55,962 nucleotides of DNA from Chrysochromulina tobinii (lineage: Eukaryota). The stretch is from assembly GCA_001275005.1 (NCBI GenBank), contig JWZX01002833.1:1-55962 (forward strand), given 5' to 3'. Under the pieces are notes generated by a model that was not told the DNA's origin, made no database searches, and saw nothing but the letters and a program-made list of their open reading frames with translations. This document shows positions 20,590-55,962 of the stretch, one piece after another. Numbering within the stretch: position 1 is the stretch's first letter; every line of letters begins with the position of its first letter. A program made the position numbers and the translations under genes.

Positions 20590-21072
20590 CAGTGCACGGT
20601 ACCGGAAAGCCCTGCCGGAAAGGTACGTGCGTATGTCCCCCGGTGTTTTTGAACCCTGATACTGAACACGGTAGTTGTAAACGTTACGTTACCGGTTCAA
20701 AGACACCGGGGGGAGCCGGGACACACAGGACACACACGGGACACGCGGACGCACGAAGGCACACGGACCGCACAGACGAACCTCACAACCATCGAAACCC
20801 ACCAACAACGTTACCGGTGTGTGTCCCGGCTCCCCCCCCGGTGTCTTTTTACAGGTACCGTAACCGGTCTGTCCATGTGTCCCGTGTGTGTCCCGGCTCC
20901 CCCCGGTGTCTTTATACCGGTACCGGTACCGTGTGTGTCCCGGCTCCCCCCGGTGTCTTTTTACCGGTACCGTACGGTACCGGTACAGTACCGGTACCGG
21001 TACAGTACCGGTACCGGTATCGCACCGCTTCGACGAGCTCTACTACAGTACCCGGTACGGGTAGTACTGTAC
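20590..21072. repeat. Cluster of short dispersed repeats (gtgtgtcccggctccccccggtgtctttt; 3 direct copies, 1 longer inverted copy, 1 partial) embedded in a (GGTACC)n-type microsatellite
   Basis: Direct copies at about 20817, 20884 and 20931; inverted copy at about 20698-20810; another copy at about 27030. Confidence 0.85.
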
Positions 21073-39243: not shown

Positions 39244-39465
39244 GATGGACGGAGTTCGTGCGTGAGGAGAGACGCGTGCCACAGGATTCTCTGATGAAAA
39301 CGCAATCATTTGAACTATGTTGCTCCGAGTTTCTGATTCTCGTCGTGCATGTCGATGATTCTCGTCCAGATTGAGCCGAGAATGATTCAAACGTAGGAAA
39401 TTCCTAACATTCTATGTCGCGGATCGTGTCGCCGGGGCCCGACGAGCCAACGCCGCTCACTATCT

Positions 39466-40533
39466 ATGTCGCGGATCGTGTCGCCAGGGCCCGACGAGCC
39501 AACGCCGCTCAACCCTATCTTCGAGCCACTTCCCGAGGACAGTCTCATCTATGAGCCACTTCGAACGATCGTGCATTCGATGCGCGTACTCGGCTACATG
39601 CCCTTTGTCCTTTGGTCGCTCCTCCGTCATCCAAGGCGCACCGTTGGCCTGGCTTCGGCGTACTATTTTCTGCGGAACACGTCTACGACGTGGAATGAAA
39701 GTGTCCGGCGGTTCGTCGCACTAGGCTCGTCGTCAAAGCCGCGGCTCATTCGGGCGCAGTCGAAGCCGTACGACAAATCGAAGCAGTATCTCTTGGCAGC
39801 ACATCCGCACGGCATCCTCAATTTTGGATGGTGGAACTTGATTGCGCGATTTGGCCTCGACCTCGTCGACGGCATCAAGCTTGTCTTCTGCATGGCGCCA
39901 GCCGTGCAATACTATCCGCTGTACGGCGAAATCTTTGGTGATCGTGCCAAGGATCCCAGTGCGGAGACTATTCGCAAAGTACTCCGCACGACATCTTTTT
40001 CTCCTGCCATCCTGCCAGGCGGTAAAAACCTCCTGATTTACGGATTTACCCCCCTCCCTCCCCTTCCCACGCTCCGACCCGGTCACGCGCACCCAACGAT
40101 CGAGTACAATTACATTGCAGACCGGATGGGTTTCGTGCGGCTCGCAATTGAGCACAAGATTGACATCATCCCCGCTTACTCGTTCGGCCTCAACGATATG
40201 TATGTGACTTTCGCTCGATGGCGGCAGTGGCGCGCCATCAAGGCTCAAGCATGGGGTTTGCCGATGGTGTTTTGGACAGGGCCCATGGGCGGCTGGATCA
40301 TGAATAATCCATTCACTGAAGCTGTGACTGTCGTGACCTTTGACCCCTTCCCGGCCTCGTCTTACACGTTGGATCAGGTCGAACAGGCACACGAGGATTA
40401 CCTCGTCTACCTCGAGCGATGCTTCGAGAGCCGCAAGGCTCAATGTGGCGCTTCGCACAAGACAATTGAGTTCATCGGCCGCAAAGGGCCTCGCCCGCCT
40501 GGCAGCAACCTATTGACTCGAGCCAAATTATGA
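39466..40533 (+). CDS. DGAT2/MOGAT-family acyltransferase
   Basis: YLLAAHPHG; ILPGG; RMGFVRLA; IIPAYSFG. Confidence 0.8.
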   Translation: MSRIVSPGPDEPTPLNPIFEPLPEDSLIYEPLRTIVHSMRVLGYMPFVLWSLLRHPRRTVGLASAYYFLRNTSTTWNESVRRFVALGSSSKPRLIRAQSKPYDKSKQYLLAAHPHGILNFGWWNLIARFGLDLVDGIKLVFCMAPAVQYYPLYGEIFGDRAKDPSAETIRKVLRTTSFSPAILPGGKNLLIYGFTPLPPLPTLRPGHAHPTIEYNYIADRMGFVRLAIEHKIDIIPAYSFGLNDMYVTFARWRQWRAIKAQAWGLPMVFWTGPMGGWIMNNPFTEAVTVVTFDPFPASSYTLDQVEQAHEDYLVYLERCFESRKAQCGASHKTIEFIGRKGPRPPGSNLLTRAKL

Positions 40534-40991
40534 CCACGACGCCCTATCGCGTGCCTGGCCTCCTAGTCCTACACACTAGATCACTAGTACTTGGAACTTG
40601 TAAGCCGAGCCCGTTGAGTGCTCGGAAGACTGGGGCCCGCGCTCCCCGCGGGCCGGGACTCGCCCGCATCGCCATTTTTATGAGTGACAGTTTAAAAGTG
40701 TAGGCCGTACCTCAACTGAGCACTCTACTCCACTCGGACTCACCCGCACGGGGGCGTCGCGCTTAACGGGGAGGCAGCCTCCGGGCGGCGTTTCGCGTTA
40801 AAGGCTTAACGAGCGAGCAGCGACGTAGTCCGTAGCCAGATGATCAGCTTTGAGAGGACCACACTAAGTTAGTCATTGCGCTTCAGGCCGTGGCCACTAG
40901 GCCGTGGCGCGTGGGTCGTCACTCCTCAAACCGAATCAACGCCGACTGAAAATCGCGAACAGGTCCTCAGGTCGAAAAGCCGATGAACAGC

Positions 40992-41718
40992 CTAATCGCC
41001 ACTTGCAGCGCCAGTGAAGAGCCTGACCGCTGCTTGCAATGACGCTGCTTTCGATTGGATGAAGGGCCGGAAGTACTTCCAAATCAGCTGCAGCAGCATG
41101 ATCGCGCTCTTGACGAAAAGCGGGTTGCGCATTCTCTTCCAGAAGAGCGTCATTTCTTGCAGCGCCGATGTGAGTCTCGAGATGTCATTGCCTGGGGTTA
41201 GGTCATTCCAGGTTTGAGCGGAGTGAGTTATTAGGGTGGGTAGGGTTAGGATTAGGGTTAGGATTAGGGTCAGGGTTAGTCTAGGGTTAGGATTAGTGTT
41301 AGGATTAGGGTAAGGGTTAGTCATTGCCTTTTGTCGCCGTTATTGCGCCAAAGTGCGCGGCCGCGTTGTAAGTGAAGACTCCATACAGTACATCATTGAC
41401 GAGACCGCCTAGAGCAGCAAGCTTGGCCCACTCGCGCTCGGCACACACGTAGAGGATGGTCTCAAGCGCCTTGACGGACGCGTGCACATAGAAGCCGATG
41501 GCGACCTGTTGCATTGAGACCATCGTGGTATTGAAGAGTTTTTCTTGGCGAGGCCCGAATTCGTACTCCGCGTGGCCCGCTGGCAAATATTGCCTGCGCG
41601 TGGCGACCAGCGACGACGGACGAGTTGTCGAAGGGCTGGTCGGTGATTCGAGCGAGGCGGCTCCTGCGGCGACGGCGAGCAGCGACAGCGCATTCACGAC
41701 ACGATTCAAGGAAACCAT
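40992..41718 (-). CDS. Hypothetical signal-peptide protein; predicted join 41718..41328, 41191..40992
   Basis: Two ORFs join in frame (ATKGND-ISRL) through a GC-AG intron. Hydrophobic N-terminus. Confidence 0.55.
41231..41320 (+). repeat. Degenerate interstitial telomeric repeat (TTAGGG)n, about 15 units, inside predicted intron 41192..41327
   Basis: ttagggtgggtagggttaggattagggttaggattagggtcagggttag... Confidence 0.9.
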
Positions 41719-42056
41719 CGGTGTCCGCCAAAGGCGAGCACCGCGCTTACTTATCCATCCCCCTTGTTTCTCGGATCGGATCGCGACGCGGGCGATTGTG
41801 ATTCCGCAACTTCACGACACCTCGCTGTGTTGCCATTTACATGTTGCCTAACTTTCTCCCTGAGCCGCTCGGCAGCGTCAGTGCCTGTGTACATGTTGGA
41901 CAATCCTTTCCGGCCGCCGACCTACAATCACGACGGCTCCGTCGCCGCAGCAGCCGCAGTACAGTCCTACGGTGGTGAGCAGAATGTCCCGCTGGCGATG
42001 AACCAGCCGGCAGGCGGCGTATTGCCGTCGCCGAATCGCAATGTGCTACCACGTTC

Positions 42057-45014
42057 TCATCTTTTCTTCCCATACAGGCGGTCCGCGTGTTCCTTCGACA
42101 TGTTGACTTCGTCCCCTTGCCCCGTGTTCGCCTCGCAGCAGATCAGGACGGTGTTTGTCTTCAAGTACTCCTTGCTCTTGCGGTCCAGGCGTTCGAGGGA
42201 CACCTGGAACTTGCCTCGCGCATGGCCGTCGAAGGCCATTTGCACGCCCGTGTACTCGCACGCGCCCTCTTGAGCCACGTACCGCTCGAGCACCCATTCG
42301 ACGGTCAGCTCGCTGGGTCTCCGTTGCTTGGCCGCCAAGACTAGGTGGTTCAGCCAGGTAAGCAGCGCGGGGGTCCCTCTGGCCTCCGCGACGGCCGCGG
42401 CCGCCGCGTTGACGCGCTCCGCGCGCGTCTCCGTCCAGCGCGCGCGCGCCTCGACGATCTTCTCGACCTTATCCTGGTCGAGGCCCACGCTACAGTTCCA
42501 GATGAGCGGCACCACGGTGAACGTGCCTACGTCATACGCGCGCGTCGTCCGGGTGGCCAAGTTCAGGTCGATCGAGTAGGAGTACGGCTTGTTCCAGAAC
42601 TTGCCGTCTGGAACGTCGAGGTCGAGCTCTAGGGGCGGCAGCGGCTCCGGCGGGCCCACCGCGGCCGGCCACGTTTTGGCAGCCAGGCGGCGCTCGAGCT
42701 CGCCGCCGCGCCAGGGCGCGCAGCCAGCCTGGTCGCGCACCGCCGCCGCGACGGTGGCCACGCCTCGCCCGCGTTCGTCTTCGTCCTCCTGCGAAGCGGC
42801 TCTCCGCACACAACAACGTGGCGGTGGCAGACGGCCACCCCAGCCCAGCCAATTCCGGCCCAGGTTTGCCTTGATGGCATGGCGCCCGCAGGATTTGAGC
42901 TTCTGCACGAGCGCGGCTCGGCATCGGTGCTTTGGATCGAGGAGCACGGCGTCCAGCCACTCGGCAGCGGGCGCTGGCAGCTGGGCACGGTCGTACGGCA
43001 CGACGGGCAGGCCGCCCTCGAAGCCCGAGTGACTGCGCGTGAGCGTGGCCGCTCGCTCCGCTCCCACGTGCCTCGCGTAGCATAAGGCCGCCTCCTCTGG
43101 CGTTGAGAATGTGCCGAGGTGGATTGTTGTGCGGCCGCCAAACTGATAATGTACATGGTAGTCTCCCCGCAACTTGGTCACCCCCCTGAAGCCCGTCGAG
43201 TTCCTCGAGGAGGGCACCAGCTCGAGCCTCTCGGCAGCGGCGTCCGCCCGGGCCTTGGCAGCGGCGGCCGCCCGGGCCTCGTCCGCCGGCGCGGCGGCCG
43301 GCTCCTCGGACGCGGCAGCCGCATGGGCCTCCACGGTCGCTGCGGGCTCCTCGGCCACCACCGGCGGCGCCGCGCTCCCGCTCAGCCACGTGGCCAATGG
43401 CGCCCAGTCCCATTCGGGGTCGGCGGCGGCGAGGCGGCCGGCGAGGGCGGCGTCGTCGGCCTCGAAACATGCCTCGGATGCGCCGCTGTCGCAGCCGCCA
43501 GCAAATTGGGGGGCTGCGGGCGCGAGGGCCGGGGCGAGCCGCGCCTCGTACTCCTCAACAATGTTGACAGTGTTGAGCACGCCGTCCATAAATACGCGCG
43601 CCCTTGTTGGGTCGTCGGACTCGTACACCCGTCCCCTCTGCCAGGGGCCGTTTTGCCCTTGGCGCAGCTCGACACATGCCCCGACGGCAAAGGCGTGGCC
43701 ATTTTGGGCGCGGGGCCCGAGCGCTTCGCTGATCCATGCGACCACCCGACGCTGAGCCGCGGCAGCGGCCGGCCGCCGCTCGCGGTCCACCATCAGCGGC
43801 GCCGCCTCGTCCGAGGCACGGGCGGCCTTCTTGGCGGAGCGCTCACCACCGACTGGGCACTTTGGATTCTGGCAGCGGTCGGCTCCAGTTGAGAGCAAGG
43901 TTCGCATCCTCCATTGGCATGCTGGGCACCTGTTCTGCGATGGCTCATCGGATCTCCGCTGCTTCCGCTTCGGCACACGGGTCATCGCAGCGCTCGCGCC
44001 GTAATCGAGGCCGGCGTCGTGCGCGCCAGGAGCGGTGGCGGGACGCGGCGGAGGCTGCCTCTCCGAGGGAACCAGCGGGTCGGTAGAGGTCCCGCGTCCG
44101 ATGTTTGCCGCGCATGCGATGAGCAATTCTTCCTGTTCCCGCACGTCGTGCTCGTGATCGCCTTCCAGCCGAGTGCTCACGTAATGGACCTCGGCGAGGT
44201 GGCCCACGTGGAGAGCACACGTCGTGCGCATCTCGACCTCCCACAGATCGGGCGGCTTGATCACGCGGCAGCCAGTCGCGGAAGACGACGAGATCACGCA
44301 GATCTCGACCTGAAAGAGCACCGACAGGGCGAGCAGGGTCGCCTCATCCCCCCACGTCCCCCGCCGCCTCATGTCGGCGAGGTACGCAGGCCAATCGCCA
44401 ACCCCCAACGAATCCTTGAGCATGAAGCGCTTGCCCACCGTGCCATCGTCCATCCATCGAGTGCCATTCGTCTCGAGCCAGTGCACCGCACCAAGACGAA
44501 GCTCGAGAGCATCCCAGTCGCCAAGGCCCACGAGCTTGAGCTGGTCGGCGATCGCGTGAAACTGGCAGTCGCCGTCCTTGGGCACGTCCTTGATCGTCAA
44601 GCCGCGCGCAGCTAGATGCCGTGCGAGGACAGCGCGTGCAACGAGGATGCGTGAGTCCTCTGGCAGGTGCTCCTCGGCTGCCTCGCTGTCCATAGCTGCG
44701 CCACGGATGTGAAGCAGAGAGGCTAGAATGGCTGCGTCGAGGTCACGCTGCTCTTCTGCGTCCTCTGGCAGGTGCTCCTCGGCTTCCTCGTCGGCGGCGT
44801 CGACGCTGTCGTTGAGCAGCGCCTGCAGGAGCTCAGCCGACGGCTCGGCCTCCTCGAGCCCACGCGTCGGCGGCTCGTCGATGAGCGGCCCGTTCTGGGC
44901 GCGGGCGCCGTGCGCGGCGAGGCGAGAGGCTAGAATCGCTGCGTCGAGGTCACTCTGCTCTTCTGCGTCGCCAGCGACGGGAGGGTCTGAGGCATCCATT
45001 GTTGAGGCATCCAT
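42057..45014 (-). CDS. Multidomain protein: 2x UIM - OTU deubiquitinase - Zn ribbon - Tudor-like - AP2 DNA-binding - HNH-like endonuclease (985 aa)
   Basis: EEQSDLDAAILAS and EEQRDLDAAILAS; VPKDGDCQFHAIADQL...WGDEATL...EVHYVS; CPAC...CQNPKC; FAVGACVE...W.RGRV; NSTGFRGV...HLGTFSTPEEAALCY; QEGACEYTGVQM...SLERLD...Y...NTVLICCEAN. Confidence 0.78.
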   Translation of the reverse strand: MDASTMDASDPPVAGDAEEQSDLDAAILASRLAAHGARAQNGPLIDEPPTRGLEEAEPSAELLQALLNDSVDAADEEAEEHLPEDAEEQRDLDAAILASLLHIRGAAMDSEAAEEHLPEDSRILVARAVLARHLAARGLTIKDVPKDGDCQFHAIADQLKLVGLGDWDALELRLGAVHWLETNGTRWMDDGTVGKRFMLKDSLGVGDWPAYLADMRRRGTWGDEATLLALSVLFQVEICVISSSSATGCRVIKPPDLWEVEMRTTCALHVGHLAEVHYVSTRLEGDHEHDVREQEELLIACAANIGRGTSTDPLVPSERQPPPRPATAPGAHDAGLDYGASAAMTRVPKRKQRRSDEPSQNRCPACQWRMRTLLSTGADRCQNPKCPVGGERSAKKAARASDEAAPLMVDRERRPAAAAAQRRVVAWISEALGPRAQNGHAFAVGACVELRQGQNGPWQRGRVYESDDPTRARVFMDGVLNTVNIVEEYEARLAPALAPAAPQFAGGCDSGASEACFEADDAALAGRLAAADPEWDWAPLATWLSGSAAPPVVAEEPAATVEAHAAAASEEPAAAPADEARAAAAAKARADAAAERLELVPSSRNSTGFRGVTKLRGDYHVHYQFGGRTTIHLGTFSTPEEAALCYARHVGAERAATLTRSHSGFEGGLPVVPYDRAQLPAPAAEWLDAVLLDPKHRCRAALVQKLKSCGRHAIKANLGRNWLGWGGRLPPPRCCVRRAASQEDEDERGRGVATVAAAVRDQAGCAPWRGGELERRLAAKTWPAAVGPPEPLPPLELDLDVPDGKFWNKPYSYSIDLNLATRTTRAYDVGTFTVVPLIWNCSVGLDQDKVEKIVEARARWTETRAERVNAAAAAVAEARGTPALLTWLNHLVLAAKQRRPSELTVEWVLERYVAQEGACEYTGVQMAFDGHARGKFQVSLERLDRKSKEYLKTNTVLICCEANTGQGDEVNMSKEHADRLYGKKR

Positions 45015-45191
45015 TGTCTTCGTCCAATCGCTGACACTTTGACGTCTGACTCGATGCGCGCAAAAGTTGATCCCGAAAAAGAAGCCACGACAAGTAAAAG
45101 TCGAAACTTGAAAAGCCACTAAAACTGAACAGCCAAGACAAGTCAAGTTGACACTTGACACGCACAAATAGCAAACCAACGAGTCTCTTAA

Positions 45192-46054
45192 ACAGCTCAA
45201 AATCAGCGCGGGGGAGTCGCTGAGGCGGCCTCAACAACTCAAAATCTGCGCGGGGGAGTCGCTGAGGCGACCTCAACCACTCAAAAATCAGCGCGGGGGA
45301 GTCGCTGAGGCGGCCTCAACAACTCAAAACAGCTCAAAATCAGCGCGGAGGCGTCGTTGAGGCGGCCTCAACAACTCAAAATCAGCGCCGGGGAGTCGTT
45401 GAGGCGGCCTCAACAACTACTCAACAACTCAAAATCAGCGCCGGGGAGTCGCTGAGGCGGCCTCAACAACTCAAAATTAGCACCGGGGAGTCGCTGAGGC
45501 GACCTCAAAATCAGCGCCGGGGAGTCGCTGAGGCGGCCTCAACAACTCAAAATTAGCACCGGGGAGTCGCTGAGGTGACCTCAACAACTCAAAATCAGCG
45601 CGGGGGAGTCGTTGAGGTGACCTCAACAACTCAAAATCAGCGCGGGGGAGTCGCTGAGGCGGCCTCAACCACTCAAAATCAGCGCCGGGGAGTCGTTGAG
45701 GCGGCCTCAACAACTCAAAATCAGCGCGGGGGGGTTGTTGAGGCGGCCTCAACCACTCAAAACAGCTCAAAATCAGCGCGGGGGAGTCGCTGAGGCGGCC
45801 TCAACCACTCAAAATTAGCACCGGGGAGTCGCTGAGGTGACCTCAACAACTCAAAATCAGCGCGGGGGAGTCGCTGAGGCGGCCTCAACCACTCAAAATC
45901 ATTGCAGTGGGAGTCGTTGAGGCGGCCTCAACAACTCAAAATAGCTCAAAAGCAGCGCGGGAACGCGGGGGGGGTTGTTGAGGCGGCCTCAACCACTCAA
46001 AATCAGCGCGGGGGAGTCGTTGAGGCGGCCTCAACAACTCAAAACAGCTCAAAA
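45192..46054. repeat. Array of 42-bp hairpin repeats (ctcaaaatcagcgcgggggagtcgytgaggcggcctcaacaa), about 19 units
   Basis: Counted directly. Each unit contains an imperfect 12-bp inverted repeat with a 3-nt loop. Confidence 0.95.
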
Positions 46055-46225
46055 GCAGTTATCAGCTGCGACGTCAGGAGCGAGGACGCCGTACTCGAGG
46101 CCGCCGTCGTGCGCGCCAGGGGCGGTGGGCAGCACCGGCTTCGCCGGGGCTTTGCTCACCTTGTCCGCATCCTCTACCGTTTCGATGGCAGCGTCGGTGG
46201 CAGCGTCGTTGAGGCGCGCGGCCAT
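46049..46225 (-). CDS. 58-aa ORF or gene fragment sharing the TAPGAHD.GL.YG module with the OTU-HNH protein
   Basis: MAARLNDAATDAAIETVEDADKVSKAPAKPVLPTAPGAHDGGLEYGVLAPDVAADNCF*. The stop codon lies at the array edge. Confidence 0.35.
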   Translation of the reverse strand: MAARLNDAATDAAIETVEDADKVSKAPAKPVLPTAPGAHDGGLEYGVLAPDVAADNCF

Positions 46226-46297
46226 CTCGGTGATTGCTAAGCAATCACCGTAACCTTTACCCGCTTAACGCTTCCCAGAGTTCACTGTGTCCTGTTT

Positions 46298-46447
46298 CAC
46301 TGTTAACAAGTAAGCCCAAAGAAAGTCACTGTTAACAAGTAAACCCAAAGAAAGTCACTGTTAACAAGTAAGCCCAAAGAAAGTTTCACTGTTAACAAGA
46401 AAGCCCAAAGAAAGTCACTGTTAACAAGTAAGCCCAAAGAAAGTCAC
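46298..46447. repeat. 29-bp tandem repeat (cactgttaacaagtaagcccaaagaaagt) x5 with TGTTAACA palindrome core
   Basis: Directly visible. AT-rich, and ends about 10 bp before the ATG at 46458. Confidence 0.92.
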
Positions 46448-46457
46448 GCGACAGAAA

Positions 46458-47702
46458 ATGCTCGGGCGCGACGCCGCCGCCCTTGCCGGCCGCCTCGCGG
46501 CCGGCGACCCTGCGTTTGACTGGCAGCCTTTGGCCACGTTCATGGCGGCGGCGAGCGCGCCGGACGAGACGAGAGAGGCCGCCGCAACGCACGAGGCCAG
46601 GGCGTTTGCCGTGTCCGAGGAGCAGGAGGAGGAGGAGGCCAGGGCGGCCGCGGCGCCGCCTGCGGTGCGCAGCCAGGACGGAGCCCCTGGTAGCAGCACA
46701 GCGAGGCCCATCGAGCTCCATGACGGCGAAGAGGACGCGACGCCCGGGGGCACCGCGCCGCTGCCACCCGCCCCGCCGGTGGCGGGCCATCAGGGGCAGC
46801 CGTCGAGCTCGGCACCGCTGCGCCGCGATCCGGCTGCGGTTCCCGCGGCCAGGCCGGGCACGCGCCCGCCCAGCAGGCTCGACGAGGCGGCGTGGGGCGC
46901 CTACGTCTACAAGAACAACAAGACCGAGACGTGGCGCGCCACGTGGGGCTTCAGCGGCGACACCAAAAAGTACGACTTGAAGGTGAAGAAGGACGAGACG
47001 ATCCTCGCTGCGAAACGTTTGCCCTCGAAGGAGGCGGCGGCGATGATTCGGTTCGAGACTCTCCTCACCTTCGGCGAGCAGGACCGCATCCCGTGGGACC
47101 TGCGCGAGTTCTACAAGAAGCGCAAGGCCCTCGACTCGATCGCGGAGCGGGCGCTGCTGGCTGAGGTGCGGGCCGTCGTGGCGCCCCGTCACGGCGTCCC
47201 GGACCCGTTCGGCGAGTGGGAGATGGTCCAACGGCTCGCCAAGCGGCCGTGCCAGGAGCTCGCCCAGCTCGTGGTGCTCGCGGCGAAGTTGGCGCCCGCG
47301 ATCGAGTCGCAGGAAGGCGGCCAACCGGCGCCGCAGGGGGATCACGGGCAGGGTGCGACGCAAGCGATGACCGCGGCCACCGCGGCCAGCACGCAGCCGG
47401 CCGTCCTCAGCACGCAGGAGGTGGCGCAGCTCGCGCAGCAGCCGGAGTGGGTGGACGAGTGCGCGCGCTACGGCGAGTGCGAGGAAGATGAGGAGGAGGA
47501 TGGCGAGGAGGAAGGAGAGGAGGAGGAGGAGGAGGAGGTCGAGGAAGGGGAAGAAGGGGAGGGGGACTCGGAGCTGGCGGCGGCGGTGGTGGGGGGTGGA
47601 TCCACCGCGGCGGCCTCGACCAGAGAGGGGGCAAGCCTCAACTTCCTCAGCACCGACGACGACCTCCTGCCCCACGTGGCGACGCCGGTCGACGACGCCT
47701 GA
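46458..47702 (+). CDS. Orphan protein with possible divergent AP2-like segment and acidic tail
   Basis: Intact 414-aa ORF. Its N-terminus matches a segment of the OTU-HNH protein. TWRATWG...LPSKEAAAMIR loosely resembles AP2; poly-E tail. Confidence 0.55.
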   Translation: MLGRDAAALAGRLAAGDPAFDWQPLATFMAAASAPDETREAAATHEARAFAVSEEQEEEEARAAAAPPAVRSQDGAPGSSTARPIELHDGEEDATPGGTAPLPPAPPVAGHQGQPSSSAPLRRDPAAVPAARPGTRPPSRLDEAAWGAYVYKNNKTETWRATWGFSGDTKKYDLKVKKDETILAAKRLPSKEAAAMIRFETLLTFGEQDRIPWDLREFYKKRKALDSIAERALLAEVRAVVAPRHGVPDPFGEWEMVQRLAKRPCQELAQLVVLAAKLAPAIESQEGGQPAPQGDHGQGATQAMTAATAASTQPAVLSTQEVAQLAQQPEWVDECARYGECEEDEEEDGEEEGEEEEEEEVEEGEEGEGDSELAAAVVGGGSTAAASTREGASLNFLSTDDDLLPHVATPVDDA

Positions 47703-47876
47703 TGATGGTGTTTTTTTAGTCGCCCGGTGACGGTGGCTTCTGCGCGGGTCGCGCCCGTGTCTTCCCGAGAGTGTGGGGCGCGGCGGTCTCGTAACGGGCG
47801 GCGCACGTGTGGCCAGGGTTTTGGTTCTACCATCTATTACAGCAGGCATTCAGAGCGTGAATGCGAACACCGCACG

Positions 47877-49088
47877 TCAGTGCATGTAGTAAACGTACCG
47901 CCAGAACGGATCGTGCCCCGCGGGTGGCACGGGAAGCGGCCCCGCGAGTAGCCCGGCGAGTGCAGCGGCCTGGGCCGGTGGCAGGTTGGCCAAACCCCCC
48001 GCCGGCGGAGGAGGAGCGTTCCGAAGCCGGAGCACGTGGAGCAGGGCGTCGTGGAAGGGGCTCAGAGCAGGCGCCGGCTGGGCGCCCGCGTGCGCCGGGT
48101 GCGCCATCCCCACCGGCGCGAAGATGCGCATGTGCACGTGCGACTGATAGGCGTTCTCCTCGCAAAAGTGGCCCGGGTCGTACTCGACCGTGTACCTCAG
48201 CGCATTGGCGGCGCCCGCGGCGCACAACAAGGGCGGGAAGCCCTGGGCGCCCACAAAGTTTCGGAGCAGCCCCAGCACCATGCCGGGGGCGCGGTACGCG
48301 TCCGTGCCCACGGCGGGGTAGCCGGCGAGCGTATCCAGCGGGCACTTGCCATTGGAATCCCAGCAGCCATTCCCCGTTTCGGCCACGTTGATGTGGCCGA
48401 CATCCACCCACCCCGAGCCCCCCGAGGCGTGCGTCTGCTGCTGCTGCACGACGCACCGGTGCTGCCACGGGAGCGCGCCCGGCGCAAGTGGCCCCGCCGC
48501 TGCTCCCAATCCTGCCACAGCCGCCGCTGCCGCCGCCATCGCGGCGTGCGCGCCATCCAGCGCCGGCGCCCACGCGACGCAACCCTGCCACGCCGCTGGT
48601 TGAGGGTTCTGCAGGAAGGGGTCGAGCACGCGCACCTGCCAGACGAGCCTCGTCGGGAGCCCCGCAAGCGCCGCAGAGGTCATCGGGGCGTTGGGCGGAA
48701 GAGCCGGCGGCGGGTAGTGGTAGAACCGGAGGACCACCGTCGCCACGTGCTCGCGCCCGAGCAGGTTCAGCTGCTTGAGCGGATGCGCGCCGAACGGCAC
48801 GCCGGTCGGCGGCTGCGTGCCGGTGGAGTTTGCGAGGCCGCCCCCGTAGAGCTCGAGCGGGTTGGCCGCCCCCGGAATGGCGAGCGGCGGCGGGAGGCCC
48901 GGCTGGTAGTAGCCCTCCGGGTTGGGGCCGGCTGCCGGTCCAAAGTTTCCTAGCTTTCGCATGCCCCAGATCCCGTATCCCGCTCGCGCGTCAGGCAGGC
49001 CCGCCGGGTGGCCCGGATTGCCCGGGATGGCGGCTAAGGCCGCGGCGTGGGCAGCGGCCGCAGGCATCGGCGCAGGTGGCGCAGCCAT
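47877..49088 (-). CDS. Orphan Pro/Ala/Gly-rich protein (403 aa) with an HUH-like motif
   Basis: Intact ORF with the same upstream leader as the OTU-HNH gene. CEENAYQSHVHMRIF, and C-terminal FWRYVYYMH. Confidence 0.55.
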   Translation of the reverse strand: MAAPPAPMPAAAAHAAALAAIPGNPGHPAGLPDARAGYGIWGMRKLGNFGPAAGPNPEGYYQPGLPPPLAIPGAANPLELYGGGLANSTGTQPPTGVPFGAHPLKQLNLLGREHVATVVLRFYHYPPPALPPNAPMTSAALAGLPTRLVWQVRVLDPFLQNPQPAAWQGCVAWAPALDGAHAAMAAAAAAVAGLGAAAGPLAPGALPWQHRCVVQQQQTHASGGSGWVDVGHINVAETGNGCWDSNGKCPLDTLAGYPAVGTDAYRAPGMVLGLLRNFVGAQGFPPLLCAAGAANALRYTVEYDPGHFCEENAYQSHVHMRIFAPVGMAHPAHAGAQPAPALSPFHDALLHVLRLRNAPPPPAGGLANLPPAQAAALAGLLAGPLPVPPAGHDPFWRYVYYMH

Positions 49089-49539
49089 GGCGATCGTCCA
49101 ATCGCTGACTCTTTGTCGCCTGACCTGGTGCGCGCAAAAAGTTGCTCCGAATGGGGAAAGTTTGTGCTCCAAGGCAACACAAGACAAGACTAGAACAAGA
49201 TGTGAAGGATCCCCCGTCGACTCGGGTTGTGCGTGTGCTGTTTCTGTGTGTGTCTCAGCTGTCCAACACTTTTGTTGAGGGGACAAACGGTGGGTCACGT
49301 ACGCCCCCAGCCCTTTCCATGAATCTATTTGCAAGAGACGTGGAGTGAGGGACGGGGAGCCGCGACGAAACTGAGCTGATCAGAACTAAGTTTCCCCGCT
49401 TCCACAGAGACAAACTTCTCGAGAATCATGGATGCCACTCGAGAGGCTGACTGCATCGCGTCGCTCGTGGCGCGGCTGGGAGCGGGCGCCGACTCGGAGG
49501 CTGCTCGTGACGCTGCGCGCGCCAAGACCCCAAAACGTC

Positions 49540-51010
49540 CCTATGGCTCGGGCGCGACTGGGGCTGGGGCAGAGGCTCGGGGGCTGAGCGGGAGAGGAGG
49601 GGGGTGGCGCGGGCAGCGGCGGCAAGGGCGGCGCCGAGCGCTGCGGCGGCGGCGGCGAGGGCGGCGGCGGCGAGGGCGATGGCGAGGGCGGTGGCGGCGG
49701 GGGGCGGGGGGATGGCGGCGGCAGCGTGGGCGAGGGTGGCGGCGAGGGCCGGGTGGCAAGGGTGGAGGCAGCGGCGCCCTCATGAGCGGCGGTGAAATTG
49801 GCGGCGGTGGCGAGGGCGGAGCGGCGAGCGCGGCGGCTGTCGGGCGGCAGGGGCGGCGGCGCCGGAATCGAGGAAGGGGGCGGATGGGGGCGCGGGCGGC
49901 GGTTGTTGCACGGAGGGCGGGGGCGGCGGCGGCGGCCGCAGCGGCGAGGGAGGCGGTGGCGCCGAGGGCTTTGGCGGCAACGATGGCGGCGTGGGCGGGG
50001 ACCTGTGGCTGGGGGAGGGTGGCGCGGCGGCGCCAGCGGTGGCTGAGGCGGCGGGAGGGACGCGCCTGTTGCTGGCGGGTGTCAGGCGTGGGCGCAGGCG
50101 ATGGCGTCGGGTAGTGGCGGGGACGGTGGTGGGGACGGCGGCGATGGCGCCGGCAAAGGGTGGTGATGACGTTTGGCTTAGCGGTGCTGACGGTGGTCGC
50201 GACGGCGGTGGGGGGCGACAATGTGAGGACGGCGGCGGCGGAGGTGGAGGAGGTGACGCAACTCGGCGGTGGCGAGGGCGGAGACCGACACGCCGATGCC
50301 GATGCCGGTGGTGTTTGTGGTTGTGGAGACGGTGGTGGTGACGGCAGCGGGGACGGCGGGTGAGGCGATGCACGGAGGCGGCTACGGCGGAGGCGAAGGG
50401 CGGAAGCTTTCAAGGCGATGGCGATGGCGGTGATCGTGGCGCTGATTGGAGCGGGCGGTGGGGATGTCGGCGGACACGAAGGCGGAAGCAATGGCGGCTA
50501 AGGCGGGGGCGGCGAAGGCGGTGGCGGTGGCGGTGGCGTTGGTTGTGGCCTTGGTGGTGGCGGCTGCGATGATGGGGATGGATGGGGTGGTGATGGCGGA
50601 GGCGACAGAGGTGCAGGCCATGCGAAGCGGCTTTCAAAGCGGATGGCGATGGTGATGGTGACGGCCGTGGAGATGGCAATGTGGAAGGGGCGGCCTTGGG
50701 CGCGATGGCGGAGGCGGAGGCGGCGGTAAGAGGGACCCAATTTATGAACTCAGCAGCGTAGGCGATGGCGATCTCAGCGGTGGCGGTCTCGGCGACTGCG
50801 ATCGCAGCGGAGGCATCTTGGGGTGGTGGCGGAGGCGCCAGTGTCAGTGGAGCTGGCAAATGGTCGCTGCACCAACTTGTGAAGATGCGAGCGTCGTGGG
50901 GTTGGAGTCGGTGACGAAGGGACCGGCCATCAAAGATCCCGTCGCTGTTAAGAGAAGGAGCGTTAGTGTGAAGCGCCGCACAGGAACATCCCCCGAAGGC
51001 AACTTCGCGA
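49540..51010 (-). pseudogene. Degenerate Pro/Ser-rich (SPPPP) extensin-like sequence broken across frames
   Basis: Poly-Pro tracts alternate between minus-strand frames, with stops. A signal-like RRFTLTLLLLTATG segment lies upstream. Confidence 0.4.
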
Positions 51011-51121
51011 GCCATGAACGTTCCATCGAGTCTCGCCCTTGTCAAAGTTTGTTTCCTTTTCTGTCACTCATACTTGCTCGTTGGACGCGAGCGGAGTGGC
51101 CTGGCTCTCGATCTTTGGCGC

Positions 51122-52057
51122 ATGGCCGATGCCTCGGCCTCCTCTGACTCGCCGCCGCCGCCGCGGCCGAGCAGGGACGACGGCGACGACGACGACGACG
51201 GCGACGGCGTCGCCCCGCCGGGGACGTCACACTCGAGGAAGCGGCCGCTGCCTGGCCTGTCGCATTCCTCCCAGGAGATGTCATCGCAAGAGTCCCATGA
51301 AGGATATGAAGGCAGCCAGGAGTCGGAGGCCGCTGGCGCCGACCTCGAAACGCCATTTGACCCGGCGGCGGCGAGCAGCCCATCGGCCACGGGAGGCGTC
51401 GGCGCCTCGCCAGCCTCGGGGGCAACCACCGGCGGGCTGCCTGCTGCACCCATCTACCCACCCCCTTCACAGCTGCCGGCTCTGTCGCCTGGCGCGCCGC
51501 CGGGCAGCGCCGACTCGGTGCTGCCAATGGAGGCGGACAGCGCATCGCCCCCGCCGCCGCCCTCGTCTTCGATGTACTCTGACTGCTCACCGATGCCCCC
51601 GCGCATCCTCACCTACGGTGCGGCTGCGGCTAGCACCTCAAGTGAGGAGGAGGTGCGTCCGTACGCGCCGGCGGCGGCGGCAGTGAAGCTGGTGGAGGCG
51701 GACGCGAGCCTCAAGGCGGCCGCGCCGCTGTCCCTCGCGCCAGCTCCGGAGGCGGCGGCGGCGCAGGCAGAGGCTGTGGCGGAGGAGGTGCTCGCTTGCG
51801 TGGCTTGGCTGCTCGATGCGCTGGAGGGCGAGGAGGCGTGGGAGGAGTTGGAGGCGGACGCGTGGGAGGAGGCGGAGGCTGACGCGATGGCGGAGGCCGC
51901 GGCCGTGGCCGTGGCCGTGGCCGTGGCCGTGGCGGTGCCGCCGCCGCTGGGTGCGCACGAGGCGGACCCCTACGCCTCCACGGCGTCGGCCTCCACCTAT
52001 GTCCCGGGTGCCAGAACGGACTCCTCGTACAACGACCTCGAGCTCGATGATGACTGA
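51122..52057 (+). CDS. Low-complexity acidic/Pro-rich orphan protein
   Basis: Open frame from MADASASS, with a short basic motif (RKRP), EEVLACVAWLLDALE and a (VA)n microsatellite. Confidence 0.45.
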   Translation: MADASASSDSPPPPRPSRDDGDDDDDGDGVAPPGTSHSRKRPLPGLSHSSQEMSSQESHEGYEGSQESEAAGADLETPFDPAAASSPSATGGVGASPASGATTGGLPAAPIYPPPSQLPALSPGAPPGSADSVLPMEADSASPPPPPSSSMYSDCSPMPPRILTYGAAAASTSSEEEVRPYAPAAAAVKLVEADASLKAAAPLSLAPAPEAAAAQAEAVAEEVLACVAWLLDALEGEEAWEELEADAWEEAEADAMAEAAAVAVAVAVAVAVPPPLGAHEADPYASTASASTYVPGARTDSSYNDLELDDD

Positions 52058-52230
52058 CTGTGATTCTGTTTGTGTGGATTGCTAGAATTCTTCATGCTTC
52101 CGTGGCTCCCAACTCGCGCGTGCGCTCTAACGCGGACACACGGAGTACACAGGTCGCGTGCAACTGTGACCACAACGTCCGCTTCATGCGCGCGCGCTCG
52201 CATGCAGAGAGCGCCGGGCCAAAGATGTGT

Positions 52231-52775
52231 TTTTGAGTGGTTGAGGCCGCCTCAGCGACTCCCCCGCGCTGATTTTGAGTGGTTGAGGCCGCCTCAGCGA
52301 CTCCCCGGCGCTGATTTTGAGTTGTTGAGGCCGCCTCAGCGACTCCCCCGCGCTGATTTTGAGTGGTTGAGGTCGCCTCAGCGACTCCCCGGCGCTGATT
52401 TTGAGTTGTTGAGGCCGCCTCAACGACTCCCCCGCGCCGATTTTGAGTGGTTGAGGCCGCCTCAGCGACTCCCCGGCGCTGATTTTGAGTTGTTGAGGCC
52501 GCCTCAACGACTCCCCCGCGCTGATTTTGAGTGGTTGAGGCCGCCTCAACGACTCCCCCGCGCTGATTTTGAGTTGTTGAGGCCGCCTCAGCGACTCATC
52601 CGCGCTGATTTTGAGCTGTTTTGAGTTATAGAGGCCGCCTCAACGACTCCCCCGCGCTGATTTTGAGTTGTTGAGTAGTTGTTGAGGCCGCCTCAACGAC
52701 TCCCCGGCGCTGATTTTGAGTTGTTGAGGCCGCCTCAACGACGCCCCGGCGCTGATTTTGAGTCGTTGAGGCCGC
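52231..52775. repeat. Second array of the 42-bp hairpin repeat, about 12.5 units, inverted relative to 45192-46054
   Basis: ttttgagtkgttgaggccgcctcarcgactcccccgcgctga is the reverse complement of the left-array unit. Confidence 0.95.
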
Positions 52776-52993
52776 AGAGCTGCAACTCGCCTGTTGTATG
52801 TTGATGTTGTATGTTGAATCTTGAATGATCAGCGTTCAGCGTTCAGCGTTCCGAGTATCCGAAAGCCGCCGAGTGTTAACACCCGATAGTTCACAGCCGA
52901 GTTGTTAACACCTTCAAAGCCCACCTGGGTTATCCAAGTAGTTCACTCTCAATTGGGTTCTTGGTGTTCTTGGCTCACAGCGGCGCGGCGCTC

Positions 52994-53971
52994 ATGGCAT
53001 CCAACGCTGCCGCCAAAACGTTGGATGTTCCGAAGAAAGTCCCACCGCTACGCGCCTTACCACCAGCGCCGCCATCACCGCCGTTGCTCATCCAGGAGAG
53101 CCCGATAGTCTTCACTGAGCATATGGAAGAGAGTGTGCGAGGGCGGCGCCTCGAGCATCATTTTTTGCCCCGAATTTTCCATATGCTCTTCAAGACACTT
53201 GCGGTCTTCGTGTACCTGGTACAAATGCTGACTGCGCGCGCCGACGCCACGCCGCCGAGGCTGCTGCTGCCTGATCGGCTCACACCAGCGTGGCCGCATA
53301 GCCGCAAGCGCGGTTGCAGCTCTGCGGGCTGCGCGTACGGCCTCTGCATCCTCAGGCGCATTGCTCACGCGCCACCTCTCTCTCGCCGCCCACCGCAGAC
53401 GGCGGGCCTCTGGGGCACCTCGTACGTGCTCACTTTTGTGCTCGTAACGATGCTGATGGCCATGGGTGCGCGCGCCCCGCGTTTCGTCTCAGCGCGGCCG
53501 CTGCCCAGCTCCTTCCTGCGCCTCTGCTGCTGCCTGAGCCACTACTGCTGCCGCTGCCGCGCAGATTTCTGGACAGTCAAAAACATCTCTGGCCGGTTGC
53601 TCGTCGGCCTGCGATGGTGGAACGTCGTCGATGACAAGGGTGAGTCGAAATGGCACTTTCAAAGTTTCGAGGACCAGAGGTTTGTGCATCCGACAGACTC
53701 CAACATCTTTTGGCTCGCGCTCTTCATCTCGCCCATCGTCTGGGGTATTCTCGCCATCGGGGCGCTGCTCTCGTTCAAATTCATGTGGTTCTTGCTCGTC
53801 CAGGTTGCATTTGGCCTCAGCGTGATCAACGCTTACGGATATGTGAAGTGCAAGCGAGACGCCAGCAAAAAGCTGCAAGCGTTCGGCGGCACAGTTTTTA
53901 CGCGAGGGCTGCAGGCGTATGCGTCCATGCGCTCACGATCCGGTGGCGGTGGGGGCAGCGCCCCGATCTGA
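52994..53971 (+). CDS. TVP23: Golgi membrane protein TVP23/FAM18; predicted introns 53219..53398 and 53466..53564
   Basis: FHMLFK; after splicing MDFWTVKNISGRLLVGLRWWN...W.F; D..IFW; N.YGYVKC. Confidence 0.88.
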   Translation: MASNAAAKTLDVPKKVPPLRALPPAPPSPPLLIQESPIVFTEHMEESVRGRRLEHHFLPRIFHMLFKTLAVFVYLVQMLTARADATPPRLLLPDRLTPAWPHSRKRGCSSAGCAYGLCILRRIAHAPPLSRRPPQTAGLWGTSYVLTFVLVTMLMAMGARAPRFVSARPLPSSFLRLCCCLSHYCCRCRADFWTVKNISGRLLVGLRWWNVVDDKGESKWHFQSFEDQRFVHPTDSNIFWLALFISPIVWGILAIGALLSFKFMWFLLVQVAFGLSVINAYGYVKCKRDASKKLQAFGGTVFTRGLQAYASMRSRSGGGGGSAPI

Positions 53972-54394
53972 GCCGGTATGGCACAGCGGCAAGCAGGCCA
54001 TTCCTCCGTAGTGGCCATGTGCTCCGAGGCGTACCGATGTCATAGCTCATACTGTGAAACGCCGCGGAGATTTAGAGATACTGTTCGACGCATAAAAACG
54101 CATCGTGATGTACATATAGCAAGCATATAATACGAAACTGGATAATACGCGGCCAACGCCGTCGAATCATTACAGCCGCCGAGCGCCGACTCAACCGAAG
54201 GTTCCGAACGGGCCGGCAGACCTCAACAAGCCATGCAAGCGCGCCACCCGCGGCGGCCGGCGGGGGCTGGGCGCCCCCCCCCGCCCCCGCAAGCTGACAC
54301 GGAGGATTGTTCACGTACGCTCCGTCTGCACATTCAGTCTGCTATACCTTGCTATGGCGGTTGTGCCGCATTTCTTCCCACGAGGCTTTCGCTC

Positions 54395-55962
54395 TCACGG
54401 ACTGGAGCCGCTGGTCGAGCCACTGCCCGCGGTACTCGGCTCGCTCTGCGGCAAGGCGGAGGACGAAGAGAGGTTGTTCGAGTCCGACGAGTTGGCACCG
54501 GCGGAGCCGACGCTCCCGGCCACCGCAGAGGCGCGCGATACGTCGCTCGCGGAACCCGAGCCCGCATTGGAGTCGGCATTCGAGCCCGCGTTGGAGCCTG
54601 ATTGATCCGAGTGGTGCGAACCGTTGCCGCTCGCATTCGACGGCTGCGAGCCGCCCGAAGCGCCAGAATTGTCGCTGCCCGACTTGTCGCTGCCCGACTT
54701 GTCGCTGCCCGACTTGTCGCTGCCCGACTTATGCGACGAGCGGCCTTCTGAGTCGGAGCGCTCATCCGATTCGCCTCGGCATTGCTTCCGGCGATCGTCC
54801 TCGGAGCCGCTGTCCGCCCCCGTCCGCTCGCGGTCTGAGCCGTCGCGCCCCTCGATAGAGCTGTGGTCGTTGTTGTCGTACGACGAGCGCTCTGAGGGCT
54901 CGGAATCGCGCTCTTCGCCCTCGCGGCTGCCTTCGGGCGACGTATCGCGCTTGCGCTTCAGATCGATCTTCGCCACCGCCTCGTCGGGCAGCAAGCCGGC
55001 GTCCGTCAAGCTCACGGCCGCGGTCAGGTGATCGAGCGTGGGGCGTCCGGAGCCGCAGCCGAAAGCGGAGCTGCCGCGGGCCGAGGCACCGGCCGCAGCA
55101 CCGCCCGGTTGACTTCCGTGCGCAGAGCCGCCGATGGCGTAGGTGCAATCGTTCTCCTCGCCGTCGCTGTGCTTGTCGTGCGCCCCCATATCGTCGTCCT
55201 TGCAGTCCATGTCGTCCTCGTCCTCCATGTCGTTCTCGTAGTCCTGCGCGGCGCGCGGAGCGGGCACGACCGGTGCTGGCCTCGCGTTCAGGATCTCCTG
55301 CACAGCCGCATGCAGCGCCGGGTGCCGATGCGCGACCGCCTGGGAGAGCGCGACGAGTGTATGATCCATCGCGAGGGCGCGATGTCGGAAGCTTTGCTCC
55401 ATCCGCCCGATAGCATCTTCCGACTGCCGGAGCAGCTCCTCGAGCAATTCCATCGGCACCACGAGGCAGCCGTTTTCGGCGGCAGCAGTAGAGCTCCTGC
55501 CCGCCGGGGCGTGGCTGCATGCTGCCATCTGGCTGTCGTTGGCAGGGGCCAGCAAGGCGACGGGACCGCGATCCGACGATGCGTTCGTCGGCGGCAGCTG
55601 TACCCCCGCCTCGTGCGGCACAGACGGCATTGGCAGCCTGGCTAGTGGCGGTGGCGCTCGCAGCGGCTGTGGCGGCTGCGGCGGCTGTGCCGCCGCCGCC
55701 ACCGGCGAGTTGTGCGGCTGTGGCGCGTAGCTCGTATGGACGACTGTGAGCTCTTCGACGAGGTCCTCGACACGGCCACCTGCTGGCCCACGCCGGATTT
55801 TGTGCAGCTCTTCTGGCGCGTCGGGGCGGAAGTGCTCATGCGAGAAGACCATCGCGTCAGGATAATCCGGCTCAGAATAGGAGCGCCGCACAAAGGCGTA
55901 TGTGTGCATTTGCTGCGTGAACGAGCCGAGCTTGTTGTGCTTGAAGTAGCGCGGCAGCAGGT
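54395..55962 (-). CDS. HSF-type DNA-binding transcription factor (5'-partial)
   Basis: The window end translates as LLPRYFKHNKLGSFTQQMHTYAF...FSHEHF...LHKIRR (HSF DNA-binding domain), followed by a coiled coil and a Ser/Gly-rich tail. Confidence 0.85.
   Translation of the reverse strand, partial: LLPRYFKHNKLGSFTQQMHTYAFVRRSYSEPDYPDAMVFSHEHFRPDAPEELHKIRRGPAGGRVEDLVEELTVVHTSYAPQPHNSPVAAAAQPPQPPQPLRAPPPLARLPMPSVPHEAGVQLPPTNASSDRGPVALLAPANDSQMAACSHAPAGRSSTAAAENGCLVVPMELLEELLRQSEDAIGRMEQSFRHRALAMDHTLVALSQAVAHRHPALHAAVQEILNARPAPVVPAPRAAQDYENDMEDEDDMDCKDDDMGAHDKHSDGEENDCTYAIGGSAHGSQPGGAAAGASARGSSAFGCGSGRPTLDHLTAAVSLTDAGLLPDEAVAKIDLKRKRDTSPEGSREGEERDSEPSERSSYDNNDHSSIEGRDGSDRERTGADSGSEDDRRKQCRGESDERSDSEGRSSHKSGSDKSGSDKSGSDKSGSDNSGASGGSQPSNASGNGSHHSDQSGSNAGSNADSNAGSGSASDVSRASAVAGSVGSAGANSSDSNNLSSSSALPQSEPSTAGSGSTSGSSP

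What the first reader, a model, noticed from the sequence alone, without database searches (positions are those of the whole stretch)
42057..52930. Candidate new mobile island: nuclease/deubiquitinase gene plus orphan ORFs organised around two inverted hairpin-repeat arrays
Seen: an ~11 kb block with no recognisable housekeeping gene and no obvious introns, lying between host genes. It holds a UIM-OTU-AP2-HNH gene, two inverted arrays of the same 42-bp hairpin bracketing ~6.2 kb, a second 29-bp palindromic array, and ORFs that share protein modules and a 5' leader. I saw no DDE transposase, RT, recombinase or capsid motif. Known: HNH+AP2 pairing is typical of homing endonucleases, foldback transposons have TIRs built of tandem repeats, and baculovirus hr origins are palindrome arrays. 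Inference: this is a coherent selfish or virus-derived element that does not match a standard class.
Basis: partly seen in the sequence, partly recalled or inferred. Interest (0 to 1): 0.85.

Follow-up and report, generated by a model that had tools for sequence, protein, structure and literature searches.

The report
Algal nuclease cluster with shifting specificity
A freshwater alga carries a single-copy gene cluster, partly bracketed by two inverted repeat arrays, whose main gene joins a plant-type DNA-binding domain to a giant-virus-type predicted DNA cutter; its predicted DNA-reading residues differ strongly among wild relatives, so it likely cuts specific foreign DNA rather than being an active jumping element.

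Summary
The anatomy is real; a mobile family was not shown. The window matches Chrysochromulina tobinii. The two 42-bp arrays were found only at this locus, ORFs A-D are at single-copy depth, and there is no target-site duplication. The 29-bp unit is a dispersed repeat. Relatives 50-85% identical still link the parts, through B-C and D-C fusions and the same upstream motifs. ORF A ends in a tandem His-Me nuclease of the PacI/giant-virus group with the catalytic Glu, Arg, Tyr and Asn kept. Its UIM-OTU front is a local fusion, absent from 7 of 7 wild relatives that reach that far. Among 19 wild relatives, variation clusters in the AP2 strands and the helices before both nuclease domains (p 0.0004-0.014). 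Best reading (0.4): a virus-derived, sequence-specific nuclease under arms-race diversification, likely restricting invading DNA. Rivals: homing/drive island 0.25, foldback relic 0.15, nuclease-dead regulator 0.15. No activity or empty site was tested. The scan had not noted this on other DNA.

The parts
42057..45014 (-). ORF A, 985 aa: UIM-like motifs, OTU, Cys-rich knuckle, Tudor-like stretch (by eye), AP2, tandem His-Me (PacI-like) nuclease
44166..45014 (-). UIM-like + OTU front of ORF A, fused on in this strain; OTU Cys150 and His277 present
   Evidence: 7 of 7 wild relatives that reach this far match only from 44165 onward and P0022 matches only up to 44166; contig 44165-44628 at depth 78.8 vs 39.5; donor-type cluster holds Ctob_016180 on another contig
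43059..43217 (-). AP2 domain (aa 600-652); strands 619-633 hypervariable
   Evidence: permutation p 0.0036
42060..43001 (-). Two His-Me finger domains in tandem (aa 672-985); domain 2 keeps E941, R942, Y950, N963; domain 1 keeps D816, Y827, N841 but has Leu for Arg
42315..42359 (-). Hypervariable helix before nuclease domain 2 (aa 886-900)
   Evidence: p 0.0004; 13 variants in 18 sequences; helix in model
42864..42908 (-). Hypervariable helix before nuclease domain 1 (aa 703-717)
   Evidence: p 0.014; helix in model
45007..45073 (-). 5' leader shared with ORF C
   Evidence: 81% identity to 49081-49148
45191..46058 (+). Left 42-bp array, 19 full-core units (21 in L001, L002, L004)
46049..46225 (-). 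58-aa ORF, a fragment related to the N-terminal part of wild ORF A
   Evidence: a further paralogous piece elsewhere in the culture DNA (record 30)
46228..46250 (.). Perfect 10-bp-stem hairpin
   Evidence: the only such stem outside one simple repeat in the window
46281..46447 (+). 29-bp array (46297-46447); its first 40 bp belong to a repeat dispersed in the genome
   Evidence: summed depth 2575 vs 39.5 and loose ends on both sides, 7 contigs running on unlike behind 46320-46321
46458..47702 (+). ORF B, 414 aa orphan sharing an N-terminal segment with ORF A
   Evidence: no AP2 by HMM
47877..49088 (-). ORF C, 403 aa orphan with relatives down to about 50% identity
   Evidence: fold not resolved (pLDDT 33)
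49081..49200 (-). ORF C leader, recognisable upstream of C relatives at about 51% protein identity
   Evidence: P0275: 0 of 60 shuffles
49600..50900 (+). Degenerate GGC-rich (Gly-repeat) stretch, abundant genome-wide
   Evidence: summed depth above 20,000
51014..52057 (+). ORF D, low-complexity acidic orphan (likely start 51122); a diverged second copy is in the culture DNA
52231..52775 (-). Right 42-bp array, 12 full-core units, inverted; its outer units repeat the variant order of left units 4-6
52874..52910 (.). Two copies of the 8-bp palindrome of the 29-bp unit, 29 bp apart, upstream of TVP23
   Evidence: all 7 window copies lie here or in the 29-bp array

Best explanation
This is a single-copy, fast-rearranging gene cluster of the alga whose core gene encodes a predicted sequence-specific DNA nuclease, likely of viral origin, that likely cuts invading DNA (giant viruses, polinton-like viruses) and likely changes its target specificity in an arms race. 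Shown: domain make-up, kept catalytic residues, single-copy state, local OTU fusion, clustered hypervariation, and linkage of B, C, D and the cis-motifs in relatives. Inferred: the AP2 domain and the two variable helices read the DNA; the two His-Me domains act as a one-chain version of the PacI dimer; self-cutting is avoided, as for PacI, because the long site is absent from the 64% GC host; the 29-bp unit and the leader are promoter modules; the 42-bp palindromes are protein-binding sites, and the inverted pair arose by local duplication and favours inversions and shuffling.
For: Profile of the C-terminal region hits PacI best in PDB (E 8e-4), with PacI D92, R93, Y100, N113 aligning to E941, R942, Y950, N963. 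The model (pLDDT 82) matches giant-virus proteins over 246-390 columns (E 3e-6; 14 hits at E<=0.001, 13 of them to giant viruses or unnamed entries and one to a phage). PMC5714182 (passages) describes this group as mostly giant-viral, Tyr-dependent and without a coupled methyltransferase. Among 19 wild relatives (87-94% identical), variation clusters at aa 886-900, 619-633 and 703-717 (p 0.0004, 0.0036, 0.014; max-window permutation), while no window is significant in B (13 relatives) or C (11). The 13-residue helix has 13 variants in 18 sequences; the 25-residue catalytic stretch has 7, and E, R, Y and N are unchanged in all 18. Relatives at about 45% carry 7 (P0003) or 5 (P0251) AP2 repeats before the same nuclease. 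The related host's giant virus is 25% GC with 13-14 methyltransferases, and its PLVs are 30-39% GC (PMC6459981, passages).
Against: No activity, target or link to infection was tested. Counts are of protein variants without DNA, so there is no dN/dS; the variants may be paralogues, and gene conversion from the many AP2 paralogues could explain the AP2 patch. A fourth window (734-748, p 0.038) lies in a low-confidence linker. B and C controls have fewer sequences. The structural Asn954 is Ser in 15 of 18 sequences, and domain 1 lacks the Arg in this clade. The PDB structural match is weak (VIA Z 4.8, tied with unrelated rows; Foldseek none at E<=0.001). PHROGs also links this fold to non-nuclease anti-sigma families (for relatives). 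The defence reading does not explain the inverted arrays, and a nuclear enzyme may not reach a cytoplasmic virus factory (own knowledge).
Confidence: 0.4

Rival explanations
1. A selfish homing or drive island: the nuclease cuts the homologous chromosome lacking the block (or kills products lacking it) and the A-D block is copied by repair; specificity shifts as resistant targets arise, and B, C or D could be antidote or helper genes.
For: AP2 plus HNH is a homing-endonuclease architecture (PMC5714182 passage; PHROG HNH families match the AP2 at E 6e-8). The parts stay linked in relatives. PacI-like genes occupy a hypervariable, recombining region of Asgard archaeal viruses (PMC11529989, passages).
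Against: No empty allele: the culture DNA shows uniform depth across the block (X5 33.5-39.5 inside, 38.6-45.8 outside) and no joint skipping it among the listed rows (15 of 330 joints shown). The gene is not in an intron or intein. Catalytic residues are intact in all 18 sequences, without the decay expected of homing cycles (own knowledge; broken copies would be under-sampled).
Confidence: 0.25
2. The 7.6 kb between the outer array ends is a non-autonomous foldback (Mutator-like) transposon relic carrying captured genes B, C and D; ORF A is an unrelated neighbour.
For: Inverted arms of tandem repeats around a middle domain fit the foldback layout (PMC4079207, passages). The outer right units repeat the variant order of left units 4-6. 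A 42-bp-like unit lies upstream of a B relative at 80% identity (P0260).
Against: No flanking terminal domain shared by the two ends. No 8-10 bp duplication; longest 4 bp. No other copy. ORF A shares a leader with C and segments with B, so it is not unrelated.
Confidence: 0.15
3. A patchwork of the lineage-expanded AP2 regulator family: the His-Me domains only bind DNA, and variation reflects changing regulatory or silencing targets.
For: AP2 relatives carry RING, PHD, SAP, Tudor, homeobox and OTU domains, and none a transposase domain. The AP2 stretch has summed depth above 13,000. AP2/ERF expansion is known in Emiliania (PMC4827209, passages). Related phage families include anti-sigma proteins.
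Against: Catalytic E, R, Y and N are kept in close relatives and in the 45% relatives.
Confidence: 0.15
4. A fragment of an endogenous giant virus or polinton-like virus.
For: The nuclease fold matches giant-virus proteins, including one from Emiliania huxleyi virus 86 (E 1e-3). The ORFs are uninterrupted.
Against: No capsid, polymerase, ATPase or integrase family hit. GC3 of 0.80-0.89 is at or above that of host genes (0.67-0.80), while this host group's viruses are 25-39% GC. Seven scans of viral contigs found nothing.
Confidence: 0.05

Closest known systems
His-Me finger group 20 (PacI restriction endonuclease and giant-virus homologues; PMC5714182)
   Same: DR/ER motif with Tyr instead of His, metal-binding Asp/Glu and Asn; best PDB profile hit; giant-virus structural neighbours; no methyltransferase seen next to it
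   Different: Nuclear algal gene; two domains in one chain; fused to AP2, and here to UIM-OTU; hypervariable among wild relatives
HNH-AP2 homing endonucleases of phages and PLVs (group 2 in PMC5714182; one Symbiodinium PLV case in PMC12220804); Tetrahymena HNH-AP2 genes (recalled)
   Same: AP2 plus His-Me nuclease in one protein
   Different: Those use HNH_3/I-HmuI-type His domains; this is PacI-type, tandem, with up to 7 AP2 repeats in relatives, and not in an intron, intein or virus
Foldback transposons (FB, Galileo, Tetris, Tm1)
   Same: Inverted arms built of tandem repeats around a middle region
   Different: No terminal domain, no TSD, single locus, intact conserved ORFs in the middle
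PacI-like genes in the hypervariable region of Asgard Opia viruses (PMC11529989)
   Same: PacI-like nuclease variants in a recombining region
   Different: Archaeal virus, small stand-alone proteins, no AP2, no repeat arrays reported in the passages read
Haptophyte AP2/ERF expansion (PMC4827209)
   Same: The AP2 domain belongs to an expanded lineage family with mixed accessory domains
   Different: No nuclease fusion is mentioned in the passages read

Membership tests
PacI-like His-Me finger (group 20) | Acidic metal ligand + Arg in place of the catalytic His, Tyr in the loop, Asn in the helix | tested here: met
   E941, R942, Y950, N963 align with PacI D92, R93, Y100, N113
PacI-like His-Me finger (group 20) | Beta-beta-alpha-metal fold | tested here: met
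   Model pLDDT 82; giant-virus HNH proteins E 3e-6; PacI ranks first in VIA but only Z 4.8, rmsd 4.2, 110 aligned
PacI-like His-Me finger (group 20) | Sequence-specific DNA cleavage | not testable with these tools
   needs a biochemical assay
Homing endonuclease gene | Nuclease joined to a DNA-binding module such as AP2 | tested here: met
Homing endonuclease gene | Empty cognate allele that the enzyme cuts | tested here: inconclusive
   none in culture DNA by depth; wild DNA runs did not cover the locus
Foldback/Mutator-like transposon | Long inverted arms with internal tandem repeats | tested here: met
Foldback/Mutator-like transposon | Shared terminal domain and 8-10 bp target-site duplication | tested here: not met
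   no shared flank beyond the arrays; longest shared word near the ends 4 bp
Foldback/Mutator-like transposon | Dispersed copies | tested here: not met
   6 of 6 loci map to this site (exact 30-bp pattern only); array depth fits two arrays
Endogenous giant virus / polinton-like virus | Capsid, packaging ATPase, polymerase or integrase genes | tested here: not met
   no such Pfam hit for A-D or PHROG hit for parts of A, B, C; the folds of B, C and D are unresolved, so a remote match is not excluded
Helitron / Replitron | HUH Rep (plus helicase) gene and typical termini | tested here: inconclusive
   no Rep or helicase hit in A-D; one hairpin at 46228-46250 without a CTRR end (terminus rule recalled); a non-autonomous copy cannot be excluded
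OTU deubiquitinase | OTU domain with catalytic Cys and His | tested here: met
   PF02338 above cut-off; Cys150 and His277; activity untested

The most novel reading that the evidence does not exclude
The block is a new kind of eukaryotic mobile element that is moved by a PacI-like tyrosine His-Me nuclease acting, like an HUH transposase on REP-type palindromes, at the 42-bp arrays. Its AP2-array nucleases would be natural modular, retargetable cutters that shift specificity between strains.
Probability: 0.1. Interest if true: 0.9.

Novelty: new variant of a known kind. Interest (0 to 1): 0.55.

Why it matters
If the best reading holds, a eukaryote has taken a giant-virus-type restriction nuclease, fused it to its own AP2 DNA-binding repeats and is diversifying its specificity in lakes. 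That would be a testable candidate for restriction-like immunity in a cultured alga with isolated viruses, and would offer a reason for the many methyltransferases of those viruses. Relatives with 5-7 AP2 repeats before a one-chain double nuclease resemble natural zinc-finger-nuclease designs, and the wild variants give ready-made specificity pairs. The repeat arrays themselves look like a one-locus feature and matter less.

Tried and rejected
No whole genome was held and the loci's records could not be searched, so genome-wide copy number rests on contig depth and one metagenome scan. Viral contigs: repeat motifs and proteins gave nothing; alignments A2 and A3 were too divergent to scan. Prokaryotic genomes: no 29-bp motif. 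Rfam: 0 hits in 40000-55962. The ORF C model failed (pLDDT 33) and was not searched; the Atlas gave no usable hit for C and unnamed viral clusters plus HNH/Endonuclease VII families at 0.86-0.93 for the nuclease. My idea that ORF B holds an AP2-like domain was rejected. My idea that the 133-aa gene at 41317-41718 is duplicated was dropped: one contig is long enough to span it. A single-sequence PDB search of the last 122 aa found nothing relevant. Runs X19 and X20 gave only short scattered pieces and say nothing about synteny. RNA-library contigs cover parts of B (X14) and the nuclease end of A (X17) and none of the arrays, but contigs cannot show expression. A wild A (P0031) and a wild C (P0067) both list a longest contig of 4,969 bases; this may be one contig or chance and is not used. 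No C. parva gene model appeared among named members of the A, B or C clusters, but there was no valid control, so absence is not claimed. P0259 (D/C junction) is weak (1 of 60 shuffles reached it), and the P0002 N-terminus match to the 58-aa ORF is not significant alone (4 of 60). Literature searches listed no paper on this locus or on AP2-PacI fusions in haptophytes; the library lacks most subscription papers, and no supplements were opened.
Full report
Source and context. Members of the ORF B and ORF A clusters are named C. tobinii Ctob_001217 and Ctob_001216 on a contig of 55,962 bases, the window's length, so the window is taken as Chrysochromulina tobinii. Flanks are a DEAD helicase, a DGAT and a 133-aa gene on the left and TVP23 (DUF846) on the right. 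No whole genome was held.

Observation. The 42-bp arrays lie at 45191-46058 (+) and 52231-52775 (-), with 19 and 12 full-core units, 6,172 bp apart. The pattern has 29 matches against 0.00 expected. Each unit holds an imperfect palindrome with a variable 3-bp centre; folding z-scores are -2.3 and -3.2. The 29-bp array is at 46297-46447. ORFs A (985 aa, -), B (414, +), C (403, -) and D (347, +) are uninterrupted. A shares segments with B and with a 58-aa ORF, and a leader with C. A lies outside the array pair.

Copy number. An exact 30-bp scan of metagenome contigs returned 6 loci from 5 contigs; all 6 align to this site at 98-100%. In culture DNA contigs, single-copy depth is 33-46 (X5). A's nuclease half (35.5), B-C (39.5) and D (33.5) are single-copy, though a diverged D-like contig exists. 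The array bins sum to 215-432, with pieces at 38.8 and 77.4, which two arrays explain, and no loose end at the array edges is among the 24 of 196 rows shown. The 29-bp bin sums to 2575 and has loose ends on both sides, so that unit is dispersed. The tool warns that summed contig depth is not a copy number; I use it only as a contrast. No shared terminal domain and no duplication longer than 4 bp near the outer array ends were found.

ORF A is a chimera. Seven of seven wild relatives that reach the N-terminal third match only from position 44165 and have a different N-terminus, while the OTU-AP2 protein P0022 matches only up to 44166. The contig 44165-44628 has double depth, and P0022's cluster holds Ctob_016180 on another contig. 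The UIM-OTU front is therefore a local fusion from a second locus (inference).

The nuclease. The last 314 aa hit 473 proteins at E<=0.001; almost all distant hits among the 150 listed have two or more matched stretches. The alignment shows two His-Me-like repeats in A. A 69-sequence profile finds PacI best in PDB (E 8e-4), and PacI D92, R93, Y100, N113 align with E941, R942, Y950, N963. The model has pLDDT 82. Its best viral matches are Yasminevirus, Edafosvirus, Pithovirus, Fadolivirus and Klosneuvirus proteins (E 3e-6 onward). Against solved structures the signal is weak: Foldseek gave no hit at E<=0.001 and VIA ranked PacI first at Z 4.8, tied with unrelated rows. PMC5714182 (passages) defines this group as mostly giant-viral with Tyr replacing His, possibly as nucleophile as in HUH enzymes. 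PMC4081073 (passages) gives Asp and Asn as metal ligands and Tyr as general base. Against activity: Asn954 is Ser in 15 of 18 sequences, and domain 1 has Leu for Arg in this clade.

Hypervariation. I compared A (aa 284-985) with 19 distinct relatives: 12 listed members of its cluster (15 of 27 were listed; three same-strain copies were left out or used as reference), P0002, P0098 and five members of P0098's cluster (the gene model P0319 was left out; P0322 aligned poorly). Of 701 positions, 95 vary. The most variable 15-aa windows are 886-900 (p 0.0004), 619-633 (0.0036), 703-717 (0.014) and 734-748 (0.038) against the maximum window of 5,000 permutations. B (13 relatives, P0057 left out) and C (11 relatives; P0073, P0077, P0079 left out) show none (best p 0.37 and 0.22). 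The first three windows are the helix before domain 2, the AP2 strands and the helix before domain 1. Variable sites 886, 890, 894, 897 fall on one helical face by spacing. That these helices read DNA is inferred from their place beside the catalytic finger and from PacI's N-terminal specificity region (PMC5714182 passage; residue-level contacts recalled, not checked). The helix has 13 variants in 18 sequences; the longer catalytic stretch has 7. Relatives at about 45% identity carry 7 or 5 AP2 repeats before the same nuclease.

Coherence. Mis-called N-terminal extensions in relatives record their upstream DNA. P0260 (B relative, 80%) begins with a translation of the 42-bp unit; P0031 (wild A) with the 29-bp unit; P0275 (C relative, about 51%) with the C leader; P0287 (C relative from a cluster whose representative is 49% identical) with the start of D. 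Each was matched by 0 of 60 whole-window shuffles. P0316 is C fused to the C-terminal half of B. Both fusions are what an inversion inside the window's gene order would give; they may be real or assembly chimeras, but either way suggest proximity. Each is a single record. Whether the unit sits at the same chromosomal site in those strains is unknown.

Mechanism. I favour (0.4) a host-fixed cluster whose core is a virus-derived, sequence-specific nuclease diversifying in an arms race, most likely against invading DNA. PacI needs no methyltransferase because its host lacks the site (PMC5714182). The window is 64% GC, while the giant virus of C. parva is 25% GC with 13-14 methyltransferases and its PLVs are 30-39% GC (PMC6459981, passages). 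This is circumstantial. A homing or drive island (0.25) fits the AP2-HNH layout and has a parallel in Asgard viruses (PMC11529989, passages), but lacks an empty site. A foldback relic (0.15) fits the arms (PMC4079207, passages) but fails on termini, duplication and copies. A nuclease-dead regulator (0.15) fits the AP2 expansion (PMC4827209, passages) but not the kept catalytic residues. An endogenous virus (0.05) fails on gene content, GC3 and seven blank viral scans.

Novelty. PacI-like domains are known in giant viruses and in nematode and oomycete Polinton polymerases (bioRxiv 2023.08.22.554363, figure legends), and an HNH-AP2 fusion in a Symbiodinium PLV (PMC12220804, passages). Searches listed nothing on a nuclear AP2-PacI fusion or this locus; other listed papers were seen only as listings. 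The scan's index holds no look-alike. I rate it a new variant of a known kind, interest 0.55: the mobile-island claim is unproven, but the hypervariable nuclease is unusual and directly testable.

Noticed in passing
window 16730-16763 and 41846-41879: A 34-bp repeat (94%, inverted) shared by two intergenic regions; culture contigs break at the second copy, suggesting a dispersed host repeat at the block's left edge.
   Followed up: partly
window 41241-41322: Telomere-like 6-bp repeat tract at the 3' end of the 133-aa gene, probably inside an intron (intron inferred).
   Followed up: no
window 20821-21019: Short palindromic 6/17-bp repeats and 47-bp tandem copies forming several perfect hairpins.
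   Followed up: no
L001 10027-10929, L004 717-1619: These assemblies have 21 left-array units where the window has 19: length variation or assembly collapse.
   Followed up: partly
window 52780-53370: Culture contigs at 1.5-2x depth differ from the window at several places in the TVP23 5' region, also in one RNA run, although L006 matches the window exactly; a second copy or allele is likely.
   Followed up: no
L006 6407-6580: A second, 97% identical copy of window 55790-55962 just beyond the window's end.
   Followed up: no
window 39411-39511: 52-bp tandem duplication over the start of the DGAT gene.
   Followed up: no
window 43050-43250: The AP2 stretch draws summed depth above 13,000 from about 55 contigs; relatives are tandem-AP2 proteins with RING, PHD, SAP, Tudor, homeobox or C2H2 domains, a large modular family worth its own study.
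   Followed up: partly
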